A stretch of 61,268 nt of DNA, from IMG/VR virus record IMGVR_UViG_3300036791_000423, positions 1 to 61,268 of that record, one strand, 5' to 3'. Position numbers and translations under genes: made by a program. This DNA is from a virus. Its lineage: Duplodnaviria; Caudoviricetes. Within the stretch, counting starts at the first letter, position 1. Each line of letters begins with the position of its first letter. Under the pieces are notes generated by a model. The model did not search any database. It saw only the letters and a list, made by a program, of their open reading frames with translations, and was not told the origin of the DNA. This document shows, piece after piece, positions 12,844-55,897 of the stretch.

Positions 12844-13836
12844 ATGCGTATCTATCTGGCAGGCTGGTGGCATGTCGGCAACGCCATCGGAACCAACATC
12901 CATCAGTATAATCTGCATACCGTGCGGTATCCGTTTCATCTCGAGTCGTTCCATTACATGGACCGGCAAATCATTCAGCAGGCCCGCATGGCACAGACCA
13001 AGATGTTCTTGGACAGTGGCGCATTCAGCGCCATGACACAAGGCGTAAAGATCAACATCAAGGCTTATGCCAAGTTCATCCAAGGCAATCAGGACATCGT
13101 CGATTTCGCTTCCAATCTTGACGATACCACCAAGACCGAACAGGTAAGTTACGACAATCAAAAGTATCTGGAAGGTGCAGGCTGCCAAGTCAAGCCGGTG
13201 TTCCATTGTCGCGAAGACGAGAAATGGCTGCGCCGCTATATCGACGAAGGTTACGACTACATCCTGTTGGGCGGCATGGTCCCAGAAACCACCAAATGGC
13301 TAATCGGCTGGCTTGATCACCTTTGGCATCACTACTTTACTAAATCAGATGGTACCGCACGGTTCAAGGTTCATGGTTTTGGCTTGACCAGTCTACCGCT
13401 GATGTATCGCTATCCATGGTATAGCGTCGATTCGTCATCATGGGCACAGACCGCCAAGTTCGGCGGTGTCCTGCTTGACATCATGCAGCCTGATGGCAGC
13501 TATAAGGATTACAACATCGAGTTTTCCGACAACACCGCCAGCCGTTATAATCTGCACGGCTGGCACTATTGGAGTTTAAGCAAAGATGAGCAGCGGACAA
13601 TTGAAAACCGCTTGGCCGAGATGGAGGAAGCACGCCATAAAAATCCTGAAATCGAAGACCGCTTGGCGGTGATGATGAAATGCAAACAAGGCTTCTACCC
13701 CGAAGCTTTGGCCAAATCTTACGGCTGGCGCATGTATGCCAATCTGGAATATTTCCGCCGTGCCATGGAACGCCGCGTCACAACGTTTCGTCGTAAGCAG
13801 GATACTCTGTGGGACCACTTTGGGAGGACCGGATGA
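12844..13836 (+). CDS. dpdA: DNA 7-deazaguanine transglycosylase (TGT-like)
   Basis: FLDSGAFS, PVFH, LGG, VHGFG, YPWYSVDSSSW motifs; embedded in the que cluster. Confidence 0.85.
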   Translation: MRIYLAGWWHVGNAIGTNIHQYNLHTVRYPFHLESFHYMDRQIIQQARMAQTKMFLDSGAFSAMTQGVKINIKAYAKFIQGNQDIVDFASNLDDTTKTEQVSYDNQKYLEGAGCQVKPVFHCREDEKWLRRYIDEGYDYILLGGMVPETTKWLIGWLDHLWHHYFTKSDGTARFKVHGFGLTSLPLMYRYPWYSVDSSSWAQTAKFGGVLLDIMQPDGSYKDYNIEFSDNTASRYNLHGWHYWSLSKDEQRTIENRLAEMEEARHKNPEIEDRLAVMMKCKQGFYPEALAKSYGWRMYANLEYFRRAMERRVTTFRRKQDTLWDHFGRTG

Positions 13837-23890: not shown

Positions 23891-24265
23891 ATGAAGCATA
23901 TCGATATCCAAGAAATCATCGATGCTGTACCGCTTCGACCTGTGATGTCACGTCGTGACAAGCTATTGCGTTGGGCGCAATTGGTTGATCGGTGCCATAG
24001 CGACTTGGCGCTTTACCATGGCATCGAATATATGCGGCCATATGATCTCAACAACATCCGGCCATATGCTACCACAAGAAGTGCCTTTACGATTGCCATC
24101 ACAGACCCGACGTTCCAAGCCATGGGCCTGACGCTATCCAGCTCGTTGATTGACACCATGCGGTTCTTCGAACTATCGCAGGATCAACTTCATGGATTCT
24201 CCTGTGATTGCGGTGGCTATATCGACAATCACGAACAGGCCCGACGCATTGCGCATCTAGCCTGA
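23891..24265 (+). CDS. hypothetical protein
   Basis: CAGGAG RBS. Confidence 0.65.
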   Translation: MKHIDIQEIIDAVPLRPVMSRRDKLLRWAQLVDRCHSDLALYHGIEYMRPYDLNNIRPYATTRSAFTIAITDPTFQAMGLTLSSSLIDTMRFFELSQDQLHGFSCDCGGYIDNHEQARRIAHLA

Positions 24266-24315
24266 CACTGATCCACCCATCGGCTGTCCCGATTAATTGA
24301 ACGCAGCCGACAACT

Positions 24316-24350
24316 GGCGGGAGGGCGCAAATGCCTCCCGCCGCTTTTTT
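24316..24350 (+). terminator. terminator-like hairpin just upstream of the RAMP gene
   Basis: GGCGGGAGG-9 nt-CCTCCCGCC-GC-TTTTTT. Confidence 0.6.
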
Positions 24351-24371
24351 GTAAACACAAAGGGAAATACC

Positions 24372-25079
24372 ATGGCACGAGCAAAGAAAACATTGTCCGC
24401 CGACGTAGTGCAGCTAACCCAAACCCAGCGAGCCGCAAAGCAAGCCGCTACACCAAAGCCTGAAACCAAGGTCGTGATCACGCCGCCCAAGCTGGCCACA
24501 GCCACTGTCACTATCATCGGCAAAGCTCCCTATCTGCAAAACCGCTTTTCATCCGACAATCGTGACAAGATGATGGAGGCGCAAAAGGCTGGTAGCGCGG
24601 CCAAGAAAACCCGCAAGGCCAAGGCACCCAAAGACTTTGAAAAGGTCTATCGCGGTTCAATGCATGTATCGCAGGATGGCTGGCACGGCATCCCTTGCAC
24701 TGCCTTACGGAACGCCATGATCGACGCGTGCCGCTTGACCGAGATGGACATGGTGCGCGCCAAGATGTGCATATTCATCGTCGAACAAGGCCGTGACAAG
24801 GAAAACCTCGAGCCGCTGGTAAAGATCGATGGTAAGCCGCAGATGCATATCGAACGTGTCAAGGTTGGTATGGGCAGCACCGACCTTGCCGCGCGTGCGA
24901 TGTTTGTCAAATGGTCCTCGACGTTTGAGATCACATGGGATGACGACGTATTCCATGCACAGGATATCATCAATCTATTGGCCCGTGCAGGCTGGCAAGT
25001 CGGCATCGGTGCCGGTAGACCATTCTCAAAAATGTCTGGTGGTACTGGCAAGGGGACCTTTGAGGTACGGCAGTCATGA
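24372..25079 (+). CDS. stand-alone RAMP/Cas7-like RNA-binding protein (Vipr-like)
   Basis: N-terminal strand ATVTIIGKAPYL, GIPCTALRNAMIDA (cf. RAMP IPGSSLKG.LR), and a C-terminal Gly-rich loop GIGAGRP...GGTGKGTFEV; no other cas genes; next to the pentamer array. Confidence 0.7.
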   Translation: MARAKKTLSADVVQLTQTQRAAKQAATPKPETKVVITPPKLATATVTIIGKAPYLQNRFSSDNRDKMMEAQKAGSAAKKTRKAKAPKDFEKVYRGSMHVSQDGWHGIPCTALRNAMIDACRLTEMDMVRAKMCIFIVEQGRDKENLEPLVKIDGKPQMHIERVKVGMGSTDLAARAMFVKWSSTFEITWDDDVFHAQDIINLLARAGWQVGIGAGRPFSKMSGGTGKGTFEVRQS

Positions 25080-25363
25080 CCGCACACGACGAAGGCTTTA
25101 TTCCCGACGGTACGATGTGGCTGCAACCCAAAAATACGTTGCCGCGCATCGAGCAGCTATGGGCCATTGTATCGGTGGACGCCCAAGATGGTAACGAAGG
25201 CGTCTGCGCCGCCATGATCGGTGGCGTAATCATGCCGCTGATTGCCGCTGACGAAAAGCGGCTCGAACAGATTGTGCCGATTGCGAAAGAAGTCGCGGCC
25301 GAGACCGGCACAAAGTTTAAGCTGGTAAGGTTTAGCAATCGCGAGGAGGTATCGGACATATGA
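25076..25363 (+). CDS. hypothetical protein coupled to the RAMP gene
   Basis: ATGA overlap on both sides. Confidence 0.65.
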   Translation: MTAHDEGFIPDGTMWLQPKNTLPRIEQLWAIVSVDAQDGNEGVCAAMIGGVIMPLIAADEKRLEQIVPIAKEVAAETGTKFKLVRFSNREEVSDI

Positions 25364-25803
25364 GTATCGAAAAGGAACTACTTGGCTTGATGAACGCCGA
25401 AGGCCTGATCGTGGCCGAGGCAGCCGAAAAGTGGGCGGCGAGTCATCGGCAATCGGACCTTGCCAAACAATTGGAATGGGACAACCGGGTAGCTGGCAAG
25501 CAATACCGGATCAATCAAGTAAGGCAATTGATCGTAAGCCTAAAGATCACAATGGGCAACGGTACCAAGCGGTTCTATTCGCTGTCCATCGATCGCGGTA
25601 ACAAGAAAGGCGGTGGCTATCGCGATATCGGCGATATCATGAAGTCCAAGACACTTTACGATATATTGCTTCAGGATGCACTTAACGATTTGCAGCGCAT
25701 GCAGGAGCAGTATGAACGCTTGCGCGAGCTGCAACCGATATGGAAGGAGGCCGAGAGGATCAGGAAACGAAAAAAGACCAAGGAGGACCGCGCCAATGTT
25801 TAG
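25360..25803 (+). CDS. hypothetical protein, candidate partner of the RAMP/array system
   Basis: GAGGAGG RBS; EWDN..AG.QYRI.Q.RQLI motif. Confidence 0.65.
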   Translation: MSIEKELLGLMNAEGLIVAEAAEKWAASHRQSDLAKQLEWDNRVAGKQYRINQVRQLIVSLKITMGNGTKRFYSLSIDRGNKKGGGYRDIGDIMKSKTLYDILLQDALNDLQRMQEQYERLRELQPIWKEAERIRKRKKTKEDRANV

Positions 25804-25918
25804 ACGCTGGTGCTGTTTCTGGTTCCATTATCCTTTCTATCAGGTAACCAGAACCGATGTCTGCACAACGCAAATGCATTGCAGCTATTGCGATCGTAGC
25901 TGGATTGTCTTGCACTAG
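25796..25918 (+). CDS. 40 aa Cys-rich peptide
   Basis: AGGAGG RBS; stop abuts the first array delimiter. Confidence 0.4.
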   Translation: MFRRWCCFWFHYPFYQVTRTDVCTTQMHCSYCDRSWIVLH

Positions 25919-27185
25919 GCAGGCATAGCAGTTCTTTGCCGAGCTGAGCTGTGATTAGTCTAGCAAAGCGGAGCTGAACATAGCCCAGCAGGCAAAGCGG
26001 AGCAACTCAGGGCCACTCGTCACCGAGCTTAGCCTAACCCTGCTCGCCCGTACCCTGCACATCGTGTCAGCGCTTAGCAGTGCAGGCCAAGCTCTCCATA
26101 GCTAAGCCGAGCTTGGTACTGGCGGTGCGCAGTAAAGCAGGCTAAGCTAAGCGAAGCCACATGGAGCAAAGCCCAGCACAGCAGGCAAAGCCAATCAGTG
26201 CAAAGCGGAGCGGTGCGGTGTCAAGCTTGGCTTAGCGGGCAGAGCTTACCTAGGCTGACAACGGCGAAGCGGTGCAAGGCAGGCATGGCATGGCATGGCA
26301 TGGCGTAGACGGTCCTTGCGATCTATGTGCGTGGCCCGGCTAGGCAGGCCAAGCCAAGCATAGTATACCAAGCTTAGCGTAACCGAGCAGAGCAGGCCGT
26401 GCATGGCACAGCCGATCTTGTCCGTGCATAGTCGAATCAAAGCGATGACCAGCGGAACTTGGACCGGCAAAGCAGGCGCAGCAAATCCAAGCGGAGCCTG
26501 TTACATCGTAGCGAACTGAAGCCTAGCATGGCAGGCGAAACTGAACAAAGCGCAGTCCAACCCGGCGGTGCTGAGCGTCTCTGACCACAACTGAGCGCGA
26601 CACGGCACAGCAGGCAAAGCACTTTACGGCTTAGCGTAGCTTGACGTTACACTGTCCTGCCGAACCGTCCTGAGCAGAGCAGGCTATGTGATGATATGCG
26701 AAGCGTTTCGATGCGAAGCGGATCGTGGCTAAGCAGGCCAAGCGAACCACAGCAGATCGTAGCCCAAGATGCATAGTGAAGCCGCTCACTGTTAAGAACG
26801 GCCGAGCTAGGTATAGCAAGACGAAGCCAACCGCTGCGAAGCGATGCATAGCAGGCATGGCATAGCTTCACTAGTCAGAGCGTAGCGTGGCCGATCTCTG
26901 CAAGCCGGACCAAAGCAAAGCTGGCCCAGCAGAACAAGTCCCGGCCCTGTCGTGCTGATCAGTGTACTGCCCGACAAATTCGAGCGAGACCGGGCAATGC
27001 GCAGCAGGCCAAGCTAAACTTAGTAGTGCTTGATCTGGCAGTGCTTGGCAAAGCAGGCACGGCAATGCAAGGTCGCGCCGAGCCCGATCAGGCCCATCGT
27101 GGCCCAGCCTAGCTCAGCAGGCATGGCACAGCTCCGCATCCAGTACAAAGCGAAGCGAAGCTTGTCATCGCAGCGCAATGCTGGC
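25919..27185 (+). ncRNA. pentamer-periodic putative guide-RNA array, block 1 (19 units)
   Basis: Runs of NN(A/G/T)GC pentamers separated by AGGC at 25921, 25990, 26084, 26139, 26183, 26237 (GGGC), 26281, 26346, 26394, 26474, 26533, 26612, 26681, 26735, 26853, 26922 (TGGC), 27006, 27055, 27119, 27182 (TGGC). The pattern is seen directly; RNA function is inferred. Confidence 0.8.
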
Positions 27186-27221
27186 ATATTAAACTTCAAG
27201 CGACCAAAGCAAGGGAGCACC

Positions 27222-27395
27222 ATGATGAAATACAAATTATTTGTCGTCTTGGCGTTGTTCTCCGCAATATGCTTGATCACTGGTTACATGCTATCACGAG
27301 ACCAAATGTCGGCGTGGGCACTGCTGGCTTTTATACTCAGCAGTTGGTTCGCGCTGTCATTTGGTTTTATGGTTGGATTGTTTGGTGCAAGGTAA
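27222..27395 (+). CDS. 57 aa two-helix membrane protein inserted in the array
   Basis: AAGGGAG RBS, two hydrophobic segments; pentamer periodicity stops across it and resumes at its stop codon. Confidence 0.65.
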   Translation: MMKYKLFVVLALFSAICLITGYMLSRDQMSAWALLAFILSSWFALSFGFMVGLFGAR

Positions 27396-27396
27396 A

Positions 27397-28517
27397 GCAG
27401 GCTTGGCATAGCGGAGTGACGTTGAGCATAGTCAAGCGAAGCAGGCAATACAGTGCTAAGCTCGGCTGACTATGCTATGACCAGCGAAGCAGGCAGTGCA
27501 TAACCTAGCGACACCCGGCGTGGCAAAGCGCTATCAGCAAATCAATGCGTTGCAGGCTTAGCCTTCCAAGCCAAGCACGGATCATCACAGCGTAGTTATG
27601 CTCTGTCAAACCAAAGCAGGCCGAGCACTGCCCAGCATGCCTCGGCAAACATGGCGGTGCATATCCATGCTAAGCTGAGCAGGCTATGCGAAGCCACGTT
27701 GTTCTGTGCGGAGAGGAGCATGTCAAAGCACGGCTCGACCATGCAGGCGTAGCCCAGCTAGGCCGAGTGGAGCACGGCTTGGCGCATTCCTAGTTGAGCA
27801 AAGCTGAGCAGAGCTGGCGAGGCATTGCTAGGCTAAGCCTTGGCATCAAAGCACAGCAAGGCAATGCCTAGCAGGCCGAGCTTGGCTTAGCCGATTGGTG
27901 CGGTGCGCGGCATAGCGGAGCAGGCTAAGCTTGACAAATCCTAGCAAGACAGAGTCAAGCGGCGTCTGGTGGAGCCCAGCAAGGCAAGCAATGCGGTGCT
28001 TTCCGGAGCGCTGCAAAGCCCGATAGGTCTCAGCGATGCAGGCGAAGCGGAACGCTGCCAAGCTTTGCCAGACATTGCGACGCGTAGCAGGCACAGCCTT
28101 GCTAAGCGAATCCCGGCACTAACCAGCCTAGCACAGCAGGCCCAGCCCAGCGTACCGAATCGTTGCCCGGTGCTGCATACCAGTGTTCTGCAAAGCGAAG
28201 CTATACAAAGCAGGCATAGCCAAGTTGCACGCACCATTGCTGTGTTCAGCACACATATCGTAGCAAAGCAGGCTCCGCAGTTAAGCGCCTTCGGCATTGT
28301 AAAGCTCTGCATGACCTAATCCAAGCGGTGCAGTGCCCAGCGGAGCAGGCTAAGCCAAATCGCTCGAGACTAAGCAAAGCTTGCCGGAGCACAGATGAGC
28401 GAAGCTGTGCAGGCGTAGCGAAGCGCGATATAGTAAAGGGTGCTTTGCCGAACGGCGCAATGCCGAGCAGGCTAAGCGAAGCGTACAAAAAGCCTAGCTT
28501 AACACTGCTTAGCAGGC
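27397..28517 (+). ncRNA. pentamer-periodic putative guide-RNA array, block 2 (19 units)
   Basis: AGGC delimiters at 27399, 27443, 27491, 27554, 27618, 27681, 27745, 27815 (TGGC), 27873, 27922, 27986 (AAGC), 28040, 28089, 28138, 28212, 28270, 28347, 28411, 28469, 28514. Confidence 0.8.
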
Positions 28518-28519
28518 AC

Positions 28520-28555
28520 AAAAAAGGCGTTGGACCGGGAGGCTGGCCCAACGCC
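28520..28555 (-). terminator. intrinsic terminator of the late operon, facing the array
   Basis: GGCGTTGG...CCAACGCC stem preceded on the + strand by A6 (a U-tract on the - strand). Confidence 0.7.
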
Positions 28556-28814
28556 AAGTTTACAACAGGAGAAAGCTACTACCGCAGCCTATCGCACTGG
28601 CGTTCAAACGAAGCAGCGTACATTTGAACACCAGCCGCGATTCCGTATAAGAAGACTGCCTGCCATTGCAGCACCGCGCGTTGCCAAGCAAGTGGTAAGC
28701 TGTCTTCGGTTATTTGATTATTACTGACAAGCTTTAGACTAGCACCCATGTCAGCATCCTTTGCATATGTTCGGTGGTGGTGGTTCCGCCGGTGGCAGTG
28801 CAGGGAATTGGCTG

Positions 28815-29057
28815 CTATGGTCGAATGGCGTGAAAGGGAGGTCCGGCTCCTACCAGACAACCAAGTAAGCCGAAGATCAAATATACAATCATGATGGCGA
28901 CTATCGCCCACAGAATTATCATGATGATTTGACCGACAATTGGAGATACAAGACCGCTCAGAAACGGCACTAGTAGCTTGATGCAAGCAACGATTGCTCC
29001 AACTATGATCACCCAAATGATCAATTGCTCCAGAAACCCAAGAGTAAAACACGCCAT
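28815..29057 (-). CDS. holin-like membrane protein
   Basis: 80 aa, two hydrophobic segments, directly after the endolysin. Confidence 0.55.
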   Translation of the reverse strand: MACFTLGFLEQLIIWVIIVGAIVACIKLLVPFLSGLVSPIVGQIIMIILWAIVAIMIVYLIFGLLGCLVGAGPPFHAIRP

Positions 29058-29068
29058 GGCTTTTCTCC

Positions 29069-30190
29069 CTATTCAAACTTCCAGTCTACTTGCCCCATGC
29101 CGTCGATATCCAAAAGCTTGGCCAGCGCTGGCGATAGATCGATACCGGCACCATTGGTTGTTTCGCCCTGCATATCGGTTCCGCTTTCTGCCTGCGGCCG
29201 TTTGCCGGTTTGCCAATATGGATCATCGGTATTCCATGGTCCAACATCTTCGATAGTTGCTAATACGCTGACGCCAGCACTGTTGAACACCCGGACATTT
29301 GGCCGCTCGCCTTCAATGCGATCAGGCAATGCGACATAGAGATCGGTGTCGTTGAGCACCTTGTTCTCGTCGTAGGCGCTGACGTTGTAGTCGCTTGCGC
29401 CGCCGAATACAGTTGCGGTTATGCCGCATTGGTTGGCGGGAATGATTGGCGCGTTGTGAAAATCCTGACCGTTGATCGAAACAGTCACATCACCTTGCAT
29501 CTTGATTTTTAGATTGATGACATTAAGACAGCGTGTATCGCCACTGATCGGCTGGCCATTGATGATGACCGATATATCGCCCCTGACTGATCCGAGGATA
29601 TCAACCCGATTGTCACCGCTTAATTCAGGTGGCGGTTCTGGCTCGACATCGGGCGGCGGGAGATCGGCTATCTCCTTACCGCTGATCACTGACGCGATAG
29701 CCGAACAAATCTCATCAAACTTCTGGCGGTATAGATCGGCATCGGTAGATGAATCGACGAAACAAGTTTCGATCAGGATTGCCGGTTCTTCAGTATTGTT
29801 TAAAAAATAAAGATCACTGCGATACTTAGGTCCGCGATCAGTCAGATTACCGGCGTTTGCGATGGCTTCAGACAATGTCTCAGCCAAGTCTCCTTGCGTG
29901 ACGTAAAGTACTTCGCAACCCATCGGTTTTGATGTAGTCTCATAGGCGTTAAAATGCACAGATATGTCGAGATCGCGTTCTTCTGAATTATGGTAATCGA
30001 CAATGGTCTCCAGATTTTCGCTTTGCGTGGTCGATATGTCATCATGAAAAGTCTTGACACCGAGGCCATGCCGCAACAGCAGATCGGCCACCGTCTCGAC
30101 GACCAATCGCGCTTCATCGACTTCATCCAGATAGCCACTAGCACCGCGGATATGTTTTCCATGTCCAGAAGAAATGACGATTTTGCTCAT
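29069..30190 (-). CDS. endolysin: N-acetylmuramoyl-L-alanine amidase (Amidase_3) plus C-terminal DPBB/RlpA-like domain
   Basis: SSGHG...E, ISVHFNA, ILIETCFVD; C-terminal ALP...ATIEDVGP...IDLSPA. Confidence 0.85.
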   Translation of the reverse strand: MSKIVISSGHGKHIRGASGYLDEVDEARLVVETVADLLLRHGLGVKTFHDDISTTQSENLETIVDYHNSEERDLDISVHFNAYETTSKPMGCEVLYVTQGDLAETLSEAIANAGNLTDRGPKYRSDLYFLNNTEEPAILIETCFVDSSTDADLYRQKFDEICSAIASVISGKEIADLPPPDVEPEPPPELSGDNRVDILGSVRGDISVIINGQPISGDTRCLNVINLKIKMQGDVTVSINGQDFHNAPIIPANQCGITATVFGGASDYNVSAYDENKVLNDTDLYVALPDRIEGERPNVRVFNSAGVSVLATIEDVGPWNTDDPYWQTGKRPQAESGTDMQGETTNGAGIDLSPALAKLLDIDGMGQVDWKFE

Positions 30191-53210: not shown

Positions 53211-55337
53211 CTACCAGCTAACGGCCGTAGTATAAGCAACAGTGCCAGCTCGGCGCTGAAGCCAATTCAACGGAAGCACCATTCGCAGAGCAAGCGAATC
53301 GGTCTGGAACAGCGAACGCTGTGGCGCAGCAACCGTGCTCGGAGACGCAACCAACTCTTGCGGATTGGTATCCTCCATATGGAGCGTAGCCTGATCAGAC
53401 ATCTCCATCCTCGGAGTATCGCCGCCAACTACAACGAAATCAGCCGCGTCCATCAAGATCATCGTTTTTGCCGGAACAGTGGCGCTGTCGATGAACGGGA
53501 TGGTGGCCAAAGTACCGCCGCGAATTTCATCGCGGAACGGGAAAATTCCGGTATTAGCGGCGGAGAGCAGAGACGCCCGAAGCATATCGGTTTGATTGAC
53601 CAGCCAAACCAAATTTCGCACGTTGCCGTAAGTAGCTGCGCTAATCGCATTGATCAACGCCACGATATCACCAACAAGAGCCGTGATGCCGCCGCCAGCA
53701 GTCGCACCGGTCGCCACAACACCATTGAGGAGGCCTGCTGGCCTGATCACAGTTGCCGGATTGGCATCGATCAACACGCTATCGATTGCCACGCTAGTGT
53801 CCTGCTGAATAGCTTCGCGCAGGAGACCTTCGATCGCGGGGATGGAGTGCTCATCCATCTCTTTCGTCCAAGTCGTGATCACTGCCATTTTCTTCGGAGT
53901 AAGCGTCTGACTGGTGAACGCACCCTGCCTGACCGGGATAGCCAGACCTTCGCCAACAAACGAGCCAGCGAGGCTAGGCGTGCGAGAACGAGTGGGAATG
54001 ACAATCTTGCCAGTAGCTCCGAAGCTTAAGGTCAAGCCCTTCGGCGCAAGCCGGGTAAGAATGGCCTTCGGCATCAGTAGTGGCATCAGCGGCGCAAATG
54101 TAGTCTGCACCAGTTCCTGAGCCCAACCGGCAACGTTGGTCATCGCCGGTGCCGAAGCCGAGCGGAGCACGATATCCGCAATCAGCTTTACCGCGTCATC
54201 CTTATAATCTGGATAACGCTCGGCGATCTTGGCTCGAGTGTCCTCGAGCGTACGGCCCCAACCTTTGCAGAAATACGCTAGAGTACCAGCTTTGACAAAC
54301 AGGTCAAGCGGATCGTAACTGTCCTTAGTGCGATTATGAATCACCGAAGGTGAAGCAATACGATCATGTCCACTTGAAGGAACAAGTGAACGACTGCGAG
54401 GCGTAGGCTCTTGACTCGTAGTAGATTTTGCCAACAGCTTTTCGCTGTCAACAAGTGCATCGTGAGTTCGCTCAAGCTGAACAAGGTCTTCCTTGAGCTT
54501 CTGAACGATTTCCAGATCAGCATTGCTGACGTTCGAATCATCCATCTTATCGACATGATCTTGAAGAGCATCACGCTTGGAGGTGATCTGAGCCTCCAAA
54601 TTTATGATGCGTTGTGCTAGGCTAGACATTTGTCCGCCCTTTCTATTGCCACGATTATCTCTGGCTTGCCCGCCGTTGAGCCCGCGACGCTTGATTTTGT
54701 CTTCTTTGCCTTGCCCGGCGAAAACAAAATTTATCGTCTCGGACGAAATCTTTAAACTCTTGGCCACAGCCAACGCATTTGGGTTTGCAGGAACTGCAAC
54801 TACGCTGGTCTCGATCAATTCGCACTTTATAAATACCGTGCCCCAATCTGTGTTTTCCCGATCTTTCGCCTCGATCGGCTTAAAGCCGACGGATACAGCC
54901 CTGAGAACATCGGCATCGATCAATCTCCTGATCTCGTCGATTCTCTGACTGGTGCCTTCCGGCGCCATCTCGAGCCGTCCCTTTAATTGTTTTCCTTCGA
55001 CGCGAACATCGGCCCACGTCCCGATTGGAAAAGTGCTGTTGTGCCCAAATAGAGCGATTGGATTTCTTTTGAAAGCGCGAAGGTCCCATCCATCACTCAT
55101 GATCACATCATCAAGGCGATCAGGCGTCTCGTCGGAGAGAATAAACTCCATGCCACTTACTTTATCGGCATGAGTCTTATATTTTACTTCTCCGGCCGAA
55201 CGATCTTCCCATAGCATCTGACAAACGTCCTCATTGCCGATCTCATCGACACAATCGGACATGAACCCATCCTCATCGTCATCATCATAATCTGACGGGT
55301 CAGGTACCTGCTTGCCATGTTTGCGTTTCATAAGCAT
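53211..55337 (-). CDS. prohead protease - major capsid protein fusion (HK97 fold)
   Basis: NPIALFGH...PIG.W, AVSVGF, ELIETSVVAVPAN protease motifs; capsid FVGEG.AIPV, SLFQTDS.ALR; GAGGAG RBS at ATG 55337. Confidence 0.9.
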   Translation of the reverse strand: MLMKRKHGKQVPDPSDYDDDDEDGFMSDCVDEIGNEDVCQMLWEDRSAGEVKYKTHADKVSGMEFILSDETPDRLDDVIMSDGWDLRAFKRNPIALFGHNSTFPIGTWADVRVEGKQLKGRLEMAPEGTSQRIDEIRRLIDADVLRAVSVGFKPIEAKDRENTDWGTVFIKCELIETSVVAVPANPNALAVAKSLKISSETINFVFAGQGKEDKIKRRGLNGGQARDNRGNRKGGQMSSLAQRIINLEAQITSKRDALQDHVDKMDDSNVSNADLEIVQKLKEDLVQLERTHDALVDSEKLLAKSTTSQEPTPRSRSLVPSSGHDRIASPSVIHNRTKDSYDPLDLFVKAGTLAYFCKGWGRTLEDTRAKIAERYPDYKDDAVKLIADIVLRSASAPAMTNVAGWAQELVQTTFAPLMPLLMPKAILTRLAPKGLTLSFGATGKIVIPTRSRTPSLAGSFVGEGLAIPVRQGAFTSQTLTPKKMAVITTWTKEMDEHSIPAIEGLLREAIQQDTSVAIDSVLIDANPATVIRPAGLLNGVVATGATAGGGITALVGDIVALINAISAATYGNVRNLVWLVNQTDMLRASLLSAANTGIFPFRDEIRGGTLATIPFIDSATVPAKTMILMDAADFVVVGGDTPRMEMSDQATLHMEDTNPQELVASPSTVAAPQRSLFQTDSLALRMVLPLNWLQRRAGTVAYTTAVSW

Positions 55338-55897
55338 TGTGCTGATCTCCTCATGAAAGCCAACCAAGAGTTTCTTACGCTCACTATTGGCCAACCCTGT
55401 GCATAGAAGCTTACTAATGCCTCGGTAACTTCCACAGATGGGTTCTGAAAATCATGCCAGACGATGATACCACCGGGCCTGACCAAATCTCTGGCAATCA
55501 GGCTTTCATGAGTCACCGCTGGAAAACTGTGATCGCCATCTATGAATACAGCATCGCAAGGCTCGAGGTCACTGGCCTCAAGCTCCTGGGTAGGAGCGGT
55601 CAAAAGACTAAAGCGAGGATCATTGGCATAACACCCAGCACTCTGTGGGACCTCTTCAAGCTGGCATATTAACGTGGTCATATGATCAGGAGGCACATCG
55701 ATCCCGATATATCTCTCGAGCGTAGGCACGTTCTCGAGTACCCGCTTGGCTGTGATCCCAAGATTACAACCAAACTCAATCATCACTCTAGGTCTTACGC
55801 TCTTGACCAGATCAATTAAAATAGAACACTCATTGGCCCCGAGATATCGAGAAAATGGCCCGACCACTTGCGGAACAGATATATTCTCTGTCATCAT
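55328..55897 (-). CDS. class I SAM-dependent methyltransferase (Methyltransf_24-like)
   Basis: IEFG...G, DAVFIDGDHS, PGG.IVWHD. Confidence 0.85.
   Translation of the reverse strand: MMTENISVPQVVGPFSRYLGANECSILIDLVKSVRPRVMIEFGCNLGITAKRVLENVPTLERYIGIDVPPDHMTTLICQLEEVPQSAGCYANDPRFSLLTAPTQELEASDLEPCDAVFIDGDHSFPAVTHESLIARDLVRPGGIIVWHDFQNPSVEVTEALVSFYAQGWPIVSVRNSWLAFMRRSAQCL

What the first reader, a model, noticed from the sequence alone, without database searches (positions are those of the whole stretch)
25919..28517. Grammar of the array: 5-nt period, variable NN, 4-nt AGGC punctuation
Parsed by hand: 40 delimiters (35 AGGC, 3 TGGC, 1 GGGC, 1 AAGC) define 38 units of 40-114 nt. 23 units are exact multiples of 5 nt and 14 more are off by one. 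Example 26143-26186: TAAGC TAAGC GAAGC CACAT GGAGC AAAGC CCAGC ACAGC AGGC. In unit 25994-26083 all 18 pentamers end in C. Positions 1-2 vary freely while 3-5 favour AGC/GGC/TGC, and I saw no two identical units. That is information-bearing periodicity rather than a decaying microsatellite. Inference: the NN strings spell gapped targets, e.g. unit 25994 = AA GG AA AG CA GT CG TT CT CC TC CG CC AC GT AG TT AG. If one base is skipped between pairs, the code would ignore codon wobble positions.
Basis: partly seen in the sequence, partly recalled or inferred. Interest (0 to 1): 0.92.

Follow-up and report, generated by a model that had tools for sequence, protein, structure and literature searches.

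The report
Phage VIPR guide-RNA array, AGC type
The five-base repeat tract is the guide-RNA array of a VIPR system, a CRISPR-related RNA-guided DNA silencer of phages first described in 2026 preprints, so it is real and was read correctly but belongs to a known kind.

Summary
Window 25919-28517 has 40 four-base delimiters and 38 non-identical units of 40-114 nt. It keeps a strict 5-nt phase (lag-5 identity 0.416 against 0.258 in shuffles, z 17). Positions 1-2 are free (1.99 and 1.98 bits) and position 5 is fixed (0.75 bits).

The array is the vrRNA array of a VIPR system (bioRxiv 10.64898/2026.04.26.720920 and .720927). The gene just upstream, 24372-25079, encodes a stand-alone RAMP. Its profile hits the solved SUSP1 Vipr protein (E 6.9e-6), and its model matches Csm3/Cmr4/Cas7. 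In IMG/VR and GTDB, 76 of 86 loci with a homologue carry a same-strand 5-nt array beside the gene. A partner gene (25360-25803) is detectable in 44 of 86.

I could not confirm it for these guides: scans of 2.4 Mb held locally gave no excess over controls.

Particular to this locus:
- The scaffold is A-G-C (D-G-Y) instead of G-G-Y.
- It has the largest array of the 87 records compared.
- Units have no tail and are separated only by AGGC.
- A G-loop residue (Ala here, Glu in G-G-C relatives) tracks the first scaffold base.

This scan has already noted VIPR loci in at least 390 genomes, including AGC-type ones.

The parts
24372..25079 (+). vipr gene: a stand-alone small RAMP (Cas7-like) protein of 235 aa. 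The ORF list starts it at a TTG at 24297, but homologues start near the ATG at 24372.
   Evidence: The profile of 52 homologues hits PDB 36pp_D, 'SUSP1 Vipr protein', at E 6.9e-6 over the G-loop region. The AF2 model has pLDDT 88.7. Foldseek against the PDB gives 53 matches at E <= 1e-3, led by Cmr4, Csm3 and type VII Cas7. There are 354 homologues, none with a Pfam domain. Pfam, NCBIfam and PADLOC give no cas family hit.
25076..25363 (+). Small 95-aa ORF overlapping the vipr stop (ATGA). Function unknown. Not a conserved part of the module.
   Evidence: tblastn finds it in only 2 of 86 Vipr loci, both close relatives. No hit in PHROGs, NCBIfam or PADLOC.
25360..25803 (+). Conserved partner gene (147 aa), a candidate vipr-accessory protein (vap): an N-terminal domain weakly resembling a winged helix, plus a 50-residue C-terminal helix.
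   Evidence: A homologue is detectable in 44 of 86 Vipr loci, always on the vipr strand: 0-621 bp downstream in 39 loci and 1.1-1.8 kb upstream in 5. It matches phrog_15946, of unknown function. The AF2 model has pLDDT 88.9. The best Foldseek rows are forkhead and MecI winged helices, but only at E 0.13-0.6. The VIA wide search saw only the long helix.
25919..27185 (+). vrRNA array, first block: 19 units of NN-[A/G/T]-G-C pentamers, each opened by a 4-nt AGGC-type delimiter that shifts the phase by -1.
   Evidence: Seven of these units have an orthologue in the 95%-identical relative L039.
27222..27395 (+). 57-aa ORF with two hydrophobic helices and an AAGGGAG ribosome-binding site, lying inside the array. 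Its stop overlaps the pentamer that restarts the array.
   Evidence: Sequence. The 5-nt phase is lost at 27190-27395. It is conserved at the same place in L039/L068 at 72% identity, while Vipr there is 99% and the partner 95% identical. No family hit apart from a sub-threshold Pfam row.
27396..28517 (+). vrRNA array, second block: 19 units, ending in a last AGGC at 28514-28517.
   Evidence: Seven of these units have an orthologue in L039.
28526..28555 (-). G+C-rich hairpin (11 pairs) with a T-run on the minus strand. It terminates the converging lysis/tail transcripts just before they would enter the array, and may also end the plus-strand array transcript.
   Evidence: It is 97% conserved in L039.

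Best explanation
Window 24372-28555 is a VIPR (Viral Interference Programmable Repeat) locus of an uncultured soil myophage.

Proposed mechanism, all steps inferred from the published SUSP1 and P. fulva systems and not shown for this locus:
1. The plus strand is transcribed through vipr, the partner gene and the 2.6-kb array.
2. One Vipr protomer binds each pentamer. It sequesters the conserved triplet (here mostly A-G-C, generally D-G-Y) and exposes the two variable bases.
3. Each 4-nt AGGC step breaks the 5-nt register. The transcript is thereby divided into 38 guides of 8-22 pentamers. These have no 3' tail, which fits the published 'staggered array' layout with 1-nt overlaps.
4. Each Vipr-guide filament binds double-stranded DNA whose sequence matches the NN string with one skipped base per pair. 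It forms an R-loop triplex and silences transcription of a competing phage, satellite, prophage or host gene.
5. The 147-aa partner probably assists as a DNA-binding accessory.

Shown here: the grammar, the RAMP fold, the sequence link to SUSP1 Vipr, and the conserved gene-array linkage. Unknown: what the 38 guides target.
For: Protein:
- The profile of the upstream gene hits the solved SUSP1 Vipr chain at E 6.9e-6.
- Its confident model (pLDDT 88.7) matches Cas7-family RAMPs, with 53 chains at E <= 1e-3.

Linkage:
- 229 IMG/VR contigs encode relatives.
- Of the 86 loci kept (79 viral, 7 GTDB genome contigs), 76 have a 5-nt-periodic tract beside the gene, with the conserved triplet on the gene's strand. 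A looser threshold gives 82 of 87 including the window.
- The same AGGC punctuation is seen in both G-G-C and A-G-C relatives.
- The partner gene is present in 44 of 86 loci, always on the same strand.

Grammar: per-phase entropies are 1.99, 1.98, 1.65, 1.35 and 0.75 bits. This fits the paper's 'YNNNG' class of alternative repeats and its remark on internal degeneracy (Methods section read).

Evolution:
- Against a relative whose flanking proteins are 95-99% identical, only 14 of 38 units are shared, in colinear order. This is cassette-like turnover.
- Within shared units, NN changes at 8-9% against 18% at triplet position 1.

Protein-RNA covariation: the G-loop residue aligned to SUSP1 D177 is Glu in 18 relatives. 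Of these, 17 have G-dominant arrays with A at 0-7%. It is Ala in 10 relatives, of which 7 are A-dominant and 3 are mixed. The paper says D177 hydrogen-bonds the first G.

Orientation: the minus-strand terminator lies just outside the array.
Against: - No target was found. The window's and relatives' 345 in-phase guide blocks were scanned against 1.78 Mb and 0.61 Mb of fetched phage DNA. Best-match distributions were the same for skips 0-3 and for reversed controls. At a match fraction of 0.9 or more the counts were 7 for skip 1 against 1, 4 and 8 for skips 0, 2 and 3, and 3-4 in controls; they were 3 against 0, 1 and 1, and 0-1 in controls.
- A peptide-level scan of the contig's own six frames gave 6 of 106 registers at 7 of 8 matches, against 40 of 530 shuffles.
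- No RNA data exist for this contig, so expression and processing are unshown.
- 15 of 38 units have an internal phase slip and many have degenerate interiors, so some guides may be inactive.
- The link to SUSP1 Vipr covers only 59 residues.
- The Foldseek PDB library predates the Vipr entries, so no direct structural superposition on Vipr was made.
- The partner's winged-helix resemblance is weak (E 0.13), and its identity with any of the published vap1-6 genes is untested.
- The paper's figures and supplementary tables, which hold the type definitions, the fig. S17 logos and the fig. S18 layout, could not be seen.
Confidence: 0.9

Rival explanations
1. A genuine VIPR array that is largely a fossil. 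Many of the 38 units would be decayed or unprocessed remnants, and only the clean ones would still act as guides.
For: 15 of 38 units are not multiples of 5 nt, and many interiors lose the G-C. Only 38% of in-phase pentamers (99 of 263) are exact AGC. More distant relatives such as L011 and L109 have much cleaner arrays.
Against: [quoted passage not shown] The pyrimidine at position 5 holds at 97% even inside degenerate units. Shared units are kept colinear, with low NN divergence from the relative. Both ends of nearly every unit are well formed.
Confidence: 0.2
2. A decoy or anti-VIPR array. The RNAs would mainly capture or redirect the Vipr protein of rival phages, as the satellite-borne solo vrRNAs do in the October 2026 preprint, instead of guiding the phage's own protein.
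For: The abstract of 10.64898/2026.10.15.759431 (abstract and outline only) describes standalone vrRNAs that redirect a rival's VIPR machinery, and phage-borne orphan vrRNAs.
Against: The array sits directly behind its own vipr and partner genes. Its scaffold base matches its own protein's G-loop residue (Ala with A-rich arrays). No match to the vipr or flanking genes of 86 related loci was found.
Confidence: 0.05
3. A decaying pentanucleotide microsatellite or selfish repeat with no function, produced by slippage.
For: A short run of ATGGC x4 at 26285-26304 shows that local slippage does occur.
Against: Variation is confined to two of the five phases, with entropies of 1.99 and 1.98 against 0.75 bits. 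No two units are alike. TRF finds only that one 31-nt run. The same grammar lies beside a RAMP gene in 76 of 86 loci of diverged phages, and the scaffold base covaries with a protein residue.
Confidence: 0.01
4. My own first guess: an RNA or ssDNA sponge wrapped around a ring-shaped triplet-reading protein in the manner of TRAP (trp RNA-binding attenuation protein).
For: TRAP reads triplets spaced by two or three free bases. That is recalled knowledge, with no call behind it.
Against: The conserved neighbour is a RAMP related to Vipr, not a TRAP-like protein. No Rfam family matched.
Confidence: 0.01

Closest known systems
VIPR systems with 'staggered' vrRNA arrays and non-GGY (YNNNG-class) repeats. 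Source: bioRxiv 10.64898/2026.04.26.720920, legend of fig. S18 and the Methods section 'VIPR type classification' (text read; figures and supplements not seen).
   Same: A stand-alone Vipr RAMP, a two-gene core, and a same-strand array of pentamers with a conserved triplet and free NN. Guides abut one another without spacers. The 4-nt AGGC step equals a pentamer that overlaps its predecessor by 1 nt. There is no CRISPR array.
   Different: I could not see the figure, so the equivalence rests on the legend's wording. Here the first scaffold base is A (53%), G or T but almost never C. The array has 38 units, against a median of 7 delimiters in the 82 relatives with arrays. A membrane-protein gene interrupts it. 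Which of the seven published types it belongs to is undetermined.
Type II VIPR of Escherichia phage SUSP1 and the Pseudomonas fulva prophage: the experimentally characterised exemplars (Vipr structure PDB 36pp).
   Same: The RAMP core and G-loop are alignable at E 6.9e-6, with the Arg equivalent to R179 conserved. The 5-nt repeat has a pyrimidine at the third triplet position. Guide lengths of 8-22 repeats overlap the published 9-16. A small accessory gene is present.
   Different: SUSP1 has four vrRNAs, each with an invariant structured 3' tail (a pseudoknot); here there is no tail. The scaffold is G-G-Y in SUSP1 and A-G-C here. The residues that read G1 and stack on G2 in SUSP1 (D177, W178) are Ala and Gly here. 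The proteins are too distant for tblastn.
CRISPR class 1 backbone proteins: Cas7, Csm3 and Cmr4.
   Same: The fold: these are the top structural matches. The principle also matches: one protomer per fixed step of guide RNA, with a thumb that flips bases out.
   Different: The step is 6 nt with 5 contiguous pairing bases, against 5 nt with 2 pairing bases here. CRISPR systems have repeats, spacers and further cas genes, none of which were seen at this locus.

Membership tests
VIPR system | A stand-alone small RAMP protein (RRM core, glycine-rich loop, thumb) outside any CRISPR-cas context. | tested here: met
   The AF2 model (pLDDT 88.7) matches Cmr4, Csm3 and Cas7 chains, 53 of them at E <= 1e-3. 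The G-loop motif GIGAGRP is invariant in 52 homologues. No cas family hit in Pfam, NCBIfam or PADLOC for the four locus proteins. The rest of the window was not screened for cas genes.
VIPR system | Sequence relationship to an experimentally characterised Vipr protein. | tested here: met
   hmmsearch with the family profile against PDB sequences returned one hit only: 36pp_D, 'SUSP1 Vipr protein', E 6.9e-6, over 59 aligned residues spanning the G-loop.
VIPR system | Tandem pentanucleotide repeats beside vipr on the same strand, with a conserved triplet (GGY or a related consensus such as NNNGG, YNNNG or NNNNG) alternating with hypervariable NN. | tested here: met
   Entropies are 1.99 and 1.98 bits for NN against 1.65, 1.35 and 0.75 for the triplet. 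The pattern C-NN-D-G fits the YNNNG class. The strict GGY consensus is not met: GGC makes up only 25 of 263 pentamers.
VIPR system | The gene-array association is conserved across relatives. | tested here: met
   76 of 86 loci, or 82 of 87 at a looser threshold.
VIPR system | A vipr-accessory (vap) gene forming a two-gene operon. | tested here: inconclusive
   A conserved same-strand partner is found in 44 of 86 loci. Its winged-helix likeness is weak (E 0.13), and no comparison with the published vap1-6 genes was possible.
VIPR system | vrRNAs are expressed, processed to about 100 nt or less, and bound by Vipr. | not testable with these tools
   No listed sequencing run is on record as RNA.
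VIPR system | NN strings match natural DNA targets under the 1-nt skip rule. | tested here: inconclusive
   Local scans only, on 1.78 Mb, 0.61 Mb and the contig's own six frames, with no excess over controls. The whole-collection search was not run.
Type II VIPR (SUSP1 clade) | Each vrRNA ends in an invariant structured 3' tail. | tested here: not met
   Units abut with only AGGC between them, and the last pentamers vary. The locus is therefore not filed as type II.
CRISPR-Cas class 1 | A repeat-spacer array, a 6-nt backbone step and accompanying cas genes. | tested here: not met
   The period is 5 nt, not 6. No direct-repeat array was found at 25000-29500. None of the four locus proteins hit a cas family.

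The most novel reading that the evidence does not exclude
In this Vipr family, one G-loop residue would set which base the protein accepts at the first scaffold position. The residue is Ala214 here and aligns to SUSP1 D177, which reads the first G. With Glu, arrays are G-G-C and almost free of A. With Ala, arrays are A-G-C or mixed A/G/T. If so, A-G-C and G-G-C systems would be naturally orthogonal protein-guide pairs. Co-infecting phages could then run VIPR systems that cannot hijack each other's guides, and engineers could multiplex them. The 38-guide tail-less array would be the largest natural guide panel of the A-G-C kind among the 87 records I compared.
Probability: 0.4. Interest if true: 0.55.

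Novelty: new member of a known kind. Interest (0 to 1): 0.4.

Why it matters
VIPR is a months-old class of RNA-guided DNA binders with a non-contiguous code, proposed as the ancestor of the CRISPR backbone proteins. This locus adds an uncultured soil myophage with a very large, tail-less array. It also shows that the A-G-C scaffold is a clade property tied to one G-loop residue, which can be tested by swapping that residue and the scaffold base.

The open biological question is what a phage does with 38 different guides. Answering it needs a collection-wide decoded search that I could not run.

For the scan itself, this is a correct first-stage reading of a thing already in print, and one the scan has already noted in at least 390 genomes.

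Tried and rejected
- Known RNAs: Rfam at E <= 1 on 24000-30000 gave 0 matches. ARAGORN found 0 tRNAs in the window.
- Array DNA against the 'phages' collection (blastn): no match.
- Cyanobacterial host marker: the HIP1 octamer occurs 0 times in the window, so that idea was dropped.
- TRAP-like ring-protein sponge and primase-site array: my early ideas, dropped once the RAMP/Vipr match appeared.
- Target search, DNA level: 23 in-phase window guides against 1.78 Mb. The best matches were 13-23 of 16-36 bases with no skip rule standing out.
- Target search, all guides: 345 in-phase blocks from all arrays against the same 1.78 Mb, and against 0.61 Mb around the terminase and tail-sheath genes of sister phages. 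There was no excess of skip 1 over skips 0, 2 and 3 or over reversed guides.
- Target search, peptide level: guides read as codon positions 1-2, both orientations, 53 registers, against the contig's own six frames. This tested the 'sister-phage allele with own copy recoded' lead from earlier scan notes. Result: 6 of 106 reached 7 of 8 matches against 40 of 530 shuffles, and none reached 8 of 8.
- Decoded degenerate peptides were printed once and read by eye. One unit looked to me like a helix-turn-helix segment, but that is a resemblance from memory with no search behind it, so I make no claim.
- Related loci by DNA polymerase: none found.
- VIA wide search with the partner model: only coiled-coil rows for the long helix, Z about 6, uninformative.
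- Maximum-likelihood tree of 61 Vipr rows: only the quick tree finished. The deep split has 66% support and my array labels in that call were too strict (26 rows labelled 'none'). I use it only to say that the window's 14-row group (support 82) is where most A-G-C arrays lie.
- A first attempt to label arrays by counts over 6.5-kb regions was too noisy: 53 of 61 came out 'mixed'. It was replaced by counts within parsed pentamers, which left 28 rows with at least 20 well-formed pentamers; the other 33 rows were dropped.
- Sequencing runs: no RNA holder listed. There was one DNA run, possibly the source sample, which I did not lay.
- Supplementary tables and all figures of the three preprints were not available. 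The type assignment, the fig. S17 logos and the fig. S18 layout could bear on my statements that the A-G-C scaffold and the AGGC stagger are covered by the paper.
- Of the October 2026 preprint I saw only the abstract, the outline and a term search that found none of six terms.
Full report
**What is there.** The window is a 61,268-bp IMG/VR virus record, 83% complete by the record's estimate.
- It has plus-strand replication and nucleotide-metabolism genes up to about 25.8 kb: family A DNA polymerase, a sliding-clamp-like protein and a queuine tRNA-ribosyltransferase-like gene.
- Minus-strand lysis, tail, sheath, portal, capsid and terminase genes run from 28.6 kb onward. It is therefore a myophage.
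- The only run that holds the stretch is a soil metagenome.
- The finding lies where the two converging gene blocks meet.

**The observation.**
- There are 35 GC-AGGC delimiters plus 3 TGGC, 1 GGGC and 1 AAGC, each coinciding with a -1 shift of the 5-nt phase.
- There are 38 units of 40-114 nt: 23 are multiples of five, 14 are off by one and 1 is off by more.
- Lag-5 identity is 0.416. In 500 dinucleotide-preserving shuffles the mean was 0.258 and the maximum 0.286. The flanks show about 0.25.
- Over the 263 pentamers of the in-phase units, the five positions carry 1.99, 1.98, 1.65, 1.35 and 0.75 bits.
- The grammar is NN-D-G-Y: A 53% at position 3, G 70% at position 4, and C 85% plus T 12% at position 5.
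- No two units are similar. TRF sees only one 31-nt ATGGC run.

**What it is.** A pattern made of the delimiter and three NNAGC pentamers found 51 stretches in IMG/VR. About twenty of these carry long 5-nt-periodic tracts. tblastn showed that two window genes travel with these tracts: 24297/24372-25079 and 25360-25803.
- The first gene has 354 homologues, all unnamed and without a Pfam domain.
- They share motifs typical of RAMPs, including a terminal glycine-rich loop.
- A profile of 52 of them hit exactly one PDB sequence: 36pp_D, 'SUSP1 Vipr protein', at E 6.9e-6.
- The AlphaFold model (pLDDT 88.7) matches Cmr4, Csm3 and type VII Cas7 chains.

That led to three 2026 preprints:
- 10.64898/2026.04.26.720920: I read Results, Discussion and three Methods sections.
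- 10.64898/2026.04.26.720927: I read Results part 1.
- 10.64898/2026.10.15.759431: I saw the abstract and outline only.

They describe Viral Interference Programmable Repeat systems:
- A phage-borne stand-alone RAMP (Vipr) works with an accessory gene (vap) and vrRNAs made of 9-16 pentamers.
- In each pentamer a conserved G-G-Y alternates with hypervariable NN.
- One protomer binds each repeat and hides the triplet.
- The NN bases pair with double-stranded DNA while every third target base is skipped, usually the codon wobble base. The result is transcriptional silencing of rival mobile elements.
- The Methods mention alternative repeats (NNNGG, YNNNG, NNNNG) and frequent internal degeneracy.
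- A figure legend describes 'staggered' arrays in which the end of one vrRNA is the start of the next, with a 1-nt overlap.

**Membership.** The locus meets the sequence-level criteria.
- Of 86 further loci with a homologue (79 from IMG/VR, 7 from GTDB genome contigs), 76 have a 5-nt-periodic tract next to the gene, with the conserved triplet on the gene's strand.
- The AGGC step punctuates G-G-C arrays (L069, L117) as well as A-G-C arrays (L011, L029, L109).
- Read as CAGGC, the step is a pentamer that shares its first C with the preceding unit. This fits the 'staggered, 1-nt overlap' wording, but I could not see the figure.
- The 147-aa gene is a conserved same-strand partner in 44 of 86 loci.
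- Its model is confident (pLDDT 88.9), but its winged-helix likeness is weak (Foldseek E 0.13-0.6). I call it a candidate vap and nothing more.
- The type II hallmark, an invariant 3' tail, is absent, so this is not type II. The type is otherwise undetermined.

**What is particular here.**
1. *Scaffold.* A-G-C dominates (99 of 263 pentamers), followed by T-G-C (35) and G-G-C (25).
2. *Covariation with the protein.*
   - Among 28 relatives with at least 20 parsed pentamers, the G-loop residue at window position 214 is Glu in 18. Of these, 17 have G-dominant arrays with 0-7% A.
   - It is Ala in 10. Of these, 7 are A-dominant and 3 are mixed with 13-36% A.
   - By the alignment this residue corresponds to SUSP1 D177. 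The structure paper says D177 hydrogen-bonds the first G.
   - The rows are related, so the count is not a probability. Two Ala/A-rich rows (L056, L098) sit on long branches away from the window's group in a quick tree.
3. *Size.* The array spans 2.6 kb with 36 strict delimiters by the counting rule. The median in the 82 of 87 records with arrays is 540 bp and 7 delimiters. Loci are cut at 10 kb, and another scan note reports about 40 guides elsewhere.
4. *Turnover.*
   - A relative whose Vipr C-terminus, 95-aa ORF and partner are 99%, 97% and 95% identical shares only 14 of 38 units, in the same order.
   - In the shared in-phase units, substitutions per phase are 8/98, 9/97, 18/98, 11/98 and 9/97.
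   - NN is therefore highly diverse between guides but conserved within a guide, as expected of positions that carry target information.
5. *Interrupting gene.* A 57-aa two-helix ORF with its own ribosome-binding site splits the array into 19 + 19 units. It is kept in the relative at 72% identity.

**Mechanism, and what is shown versus inferred.**
- Shown: the grammar, the fold, the link to Vipr, the conserved linkage, the orientation (a minus-strand terminator at 28526-28555 just outside the array), the cassette turnover and the residue-base covariation.
- Inferred from the published systems: transcription of the plus strand, one protomer per pentamer, filament boundaries at the register breaks, 1-nt-skip pairing with DNA, silencing, and help from the partner protein.

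**Targets.** This is the gap.
- I scanned 345 in-phase guide blocks (14 from the window by the strict parser, and 23 whole in-phase window units separately) against all DNA I could hold.
- That DNA was 1.78 Mb of VIPR-flanking phage sequence including the contig itself, and 0.61 Mb around the terminase and sheath genes of sister phages.
- Skips 0-3 were tried with reversed-guide controls. A peptide-level scan of the contig's own frames was added.
- Nothing rose above the controls.
- The published searches used whole collections.

**Novelty and score.**
- The kind is in print, in preprints of April to October 2026. My literature searches found only those three papers plus one that mentions the term.
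- The scan has already flagged VIPR loci in at least 390 genomes, including A-G-C ones and the loss of the G-reading residues.
- This is a new member of a known kind. It is a good example of a correct first-stage reading, with a testable specificity determinant and a large guide panel of unknown purpose.

Noticed in passing
window 27222-27395: A 57-aa ORF with two hydrophobic helices sits in the middle of the guide array. The close relative L039/L068 (2082-2252) keeps it at only 72% identity while the neighbouring proteins are 95-99% identical. It may be a fast-evolving small membrane protein such as an exclusion factor, but that is a guess.
   Followed up: partly
window 12844-13836: A queuine tRNA-ribosyltransferase-like gene (phrog_887, E 1.2e-50). 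I did not explore whether modified G in the phage's own DNA affects VIPR binding.
   Followed up: no
L142:4425-6525 (Gemmatales MAG contig): A 2.1-kb 5-nt-periodic tract beside a 38%-identical Vipr homologue. Its recurring triplet is GTC (298 lag-5 recurrences), with only one AGGC-type delimiter. The scaffold and layout both differ from the window's.
   Followed up: no
L086, L087, L090: Arrays whose recurring triplet is CGC instead of GGC or AGC, beside Vipr homologues that carry Glu at the G-loop position. My GC-based parser may have mis-registered them.
   Followed up: no
L109:9339-9945 (same contig as L056): A very clean A-G-C array (A at 90% of scaffold position 1). Nearly every unit ends in the same two pentamers before AGGC, a miniature conserved 3' end that the window's units lack. 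Arrays lie on both sides of vipr.
   Followed up: partly
L029:4958-5395 (same contig as L071): The partner-gene homologue lies inside the array, with guide units on both sides. Genes and guide blocks are therefore interleaved in several relatives, not only in the window.
   Followed up: partly
window 53211-55394: A 727-aa protein matches both the major head protein (phrog_617) and the head maturation protease (phrog_80). This suggests a fused protease-capsid gene.
   Followed up: no
phages collection: hits H26-H55: Isolated phages carry unannotated Vipr homologues: Cyanophage Cy-LDV1 (42% identity), and Gordonia and Mycobacterium phages (28-33%). All are labelled hypothetical protein. These are culturable systems in which this Vipr family could be studied.
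   Followed up: no
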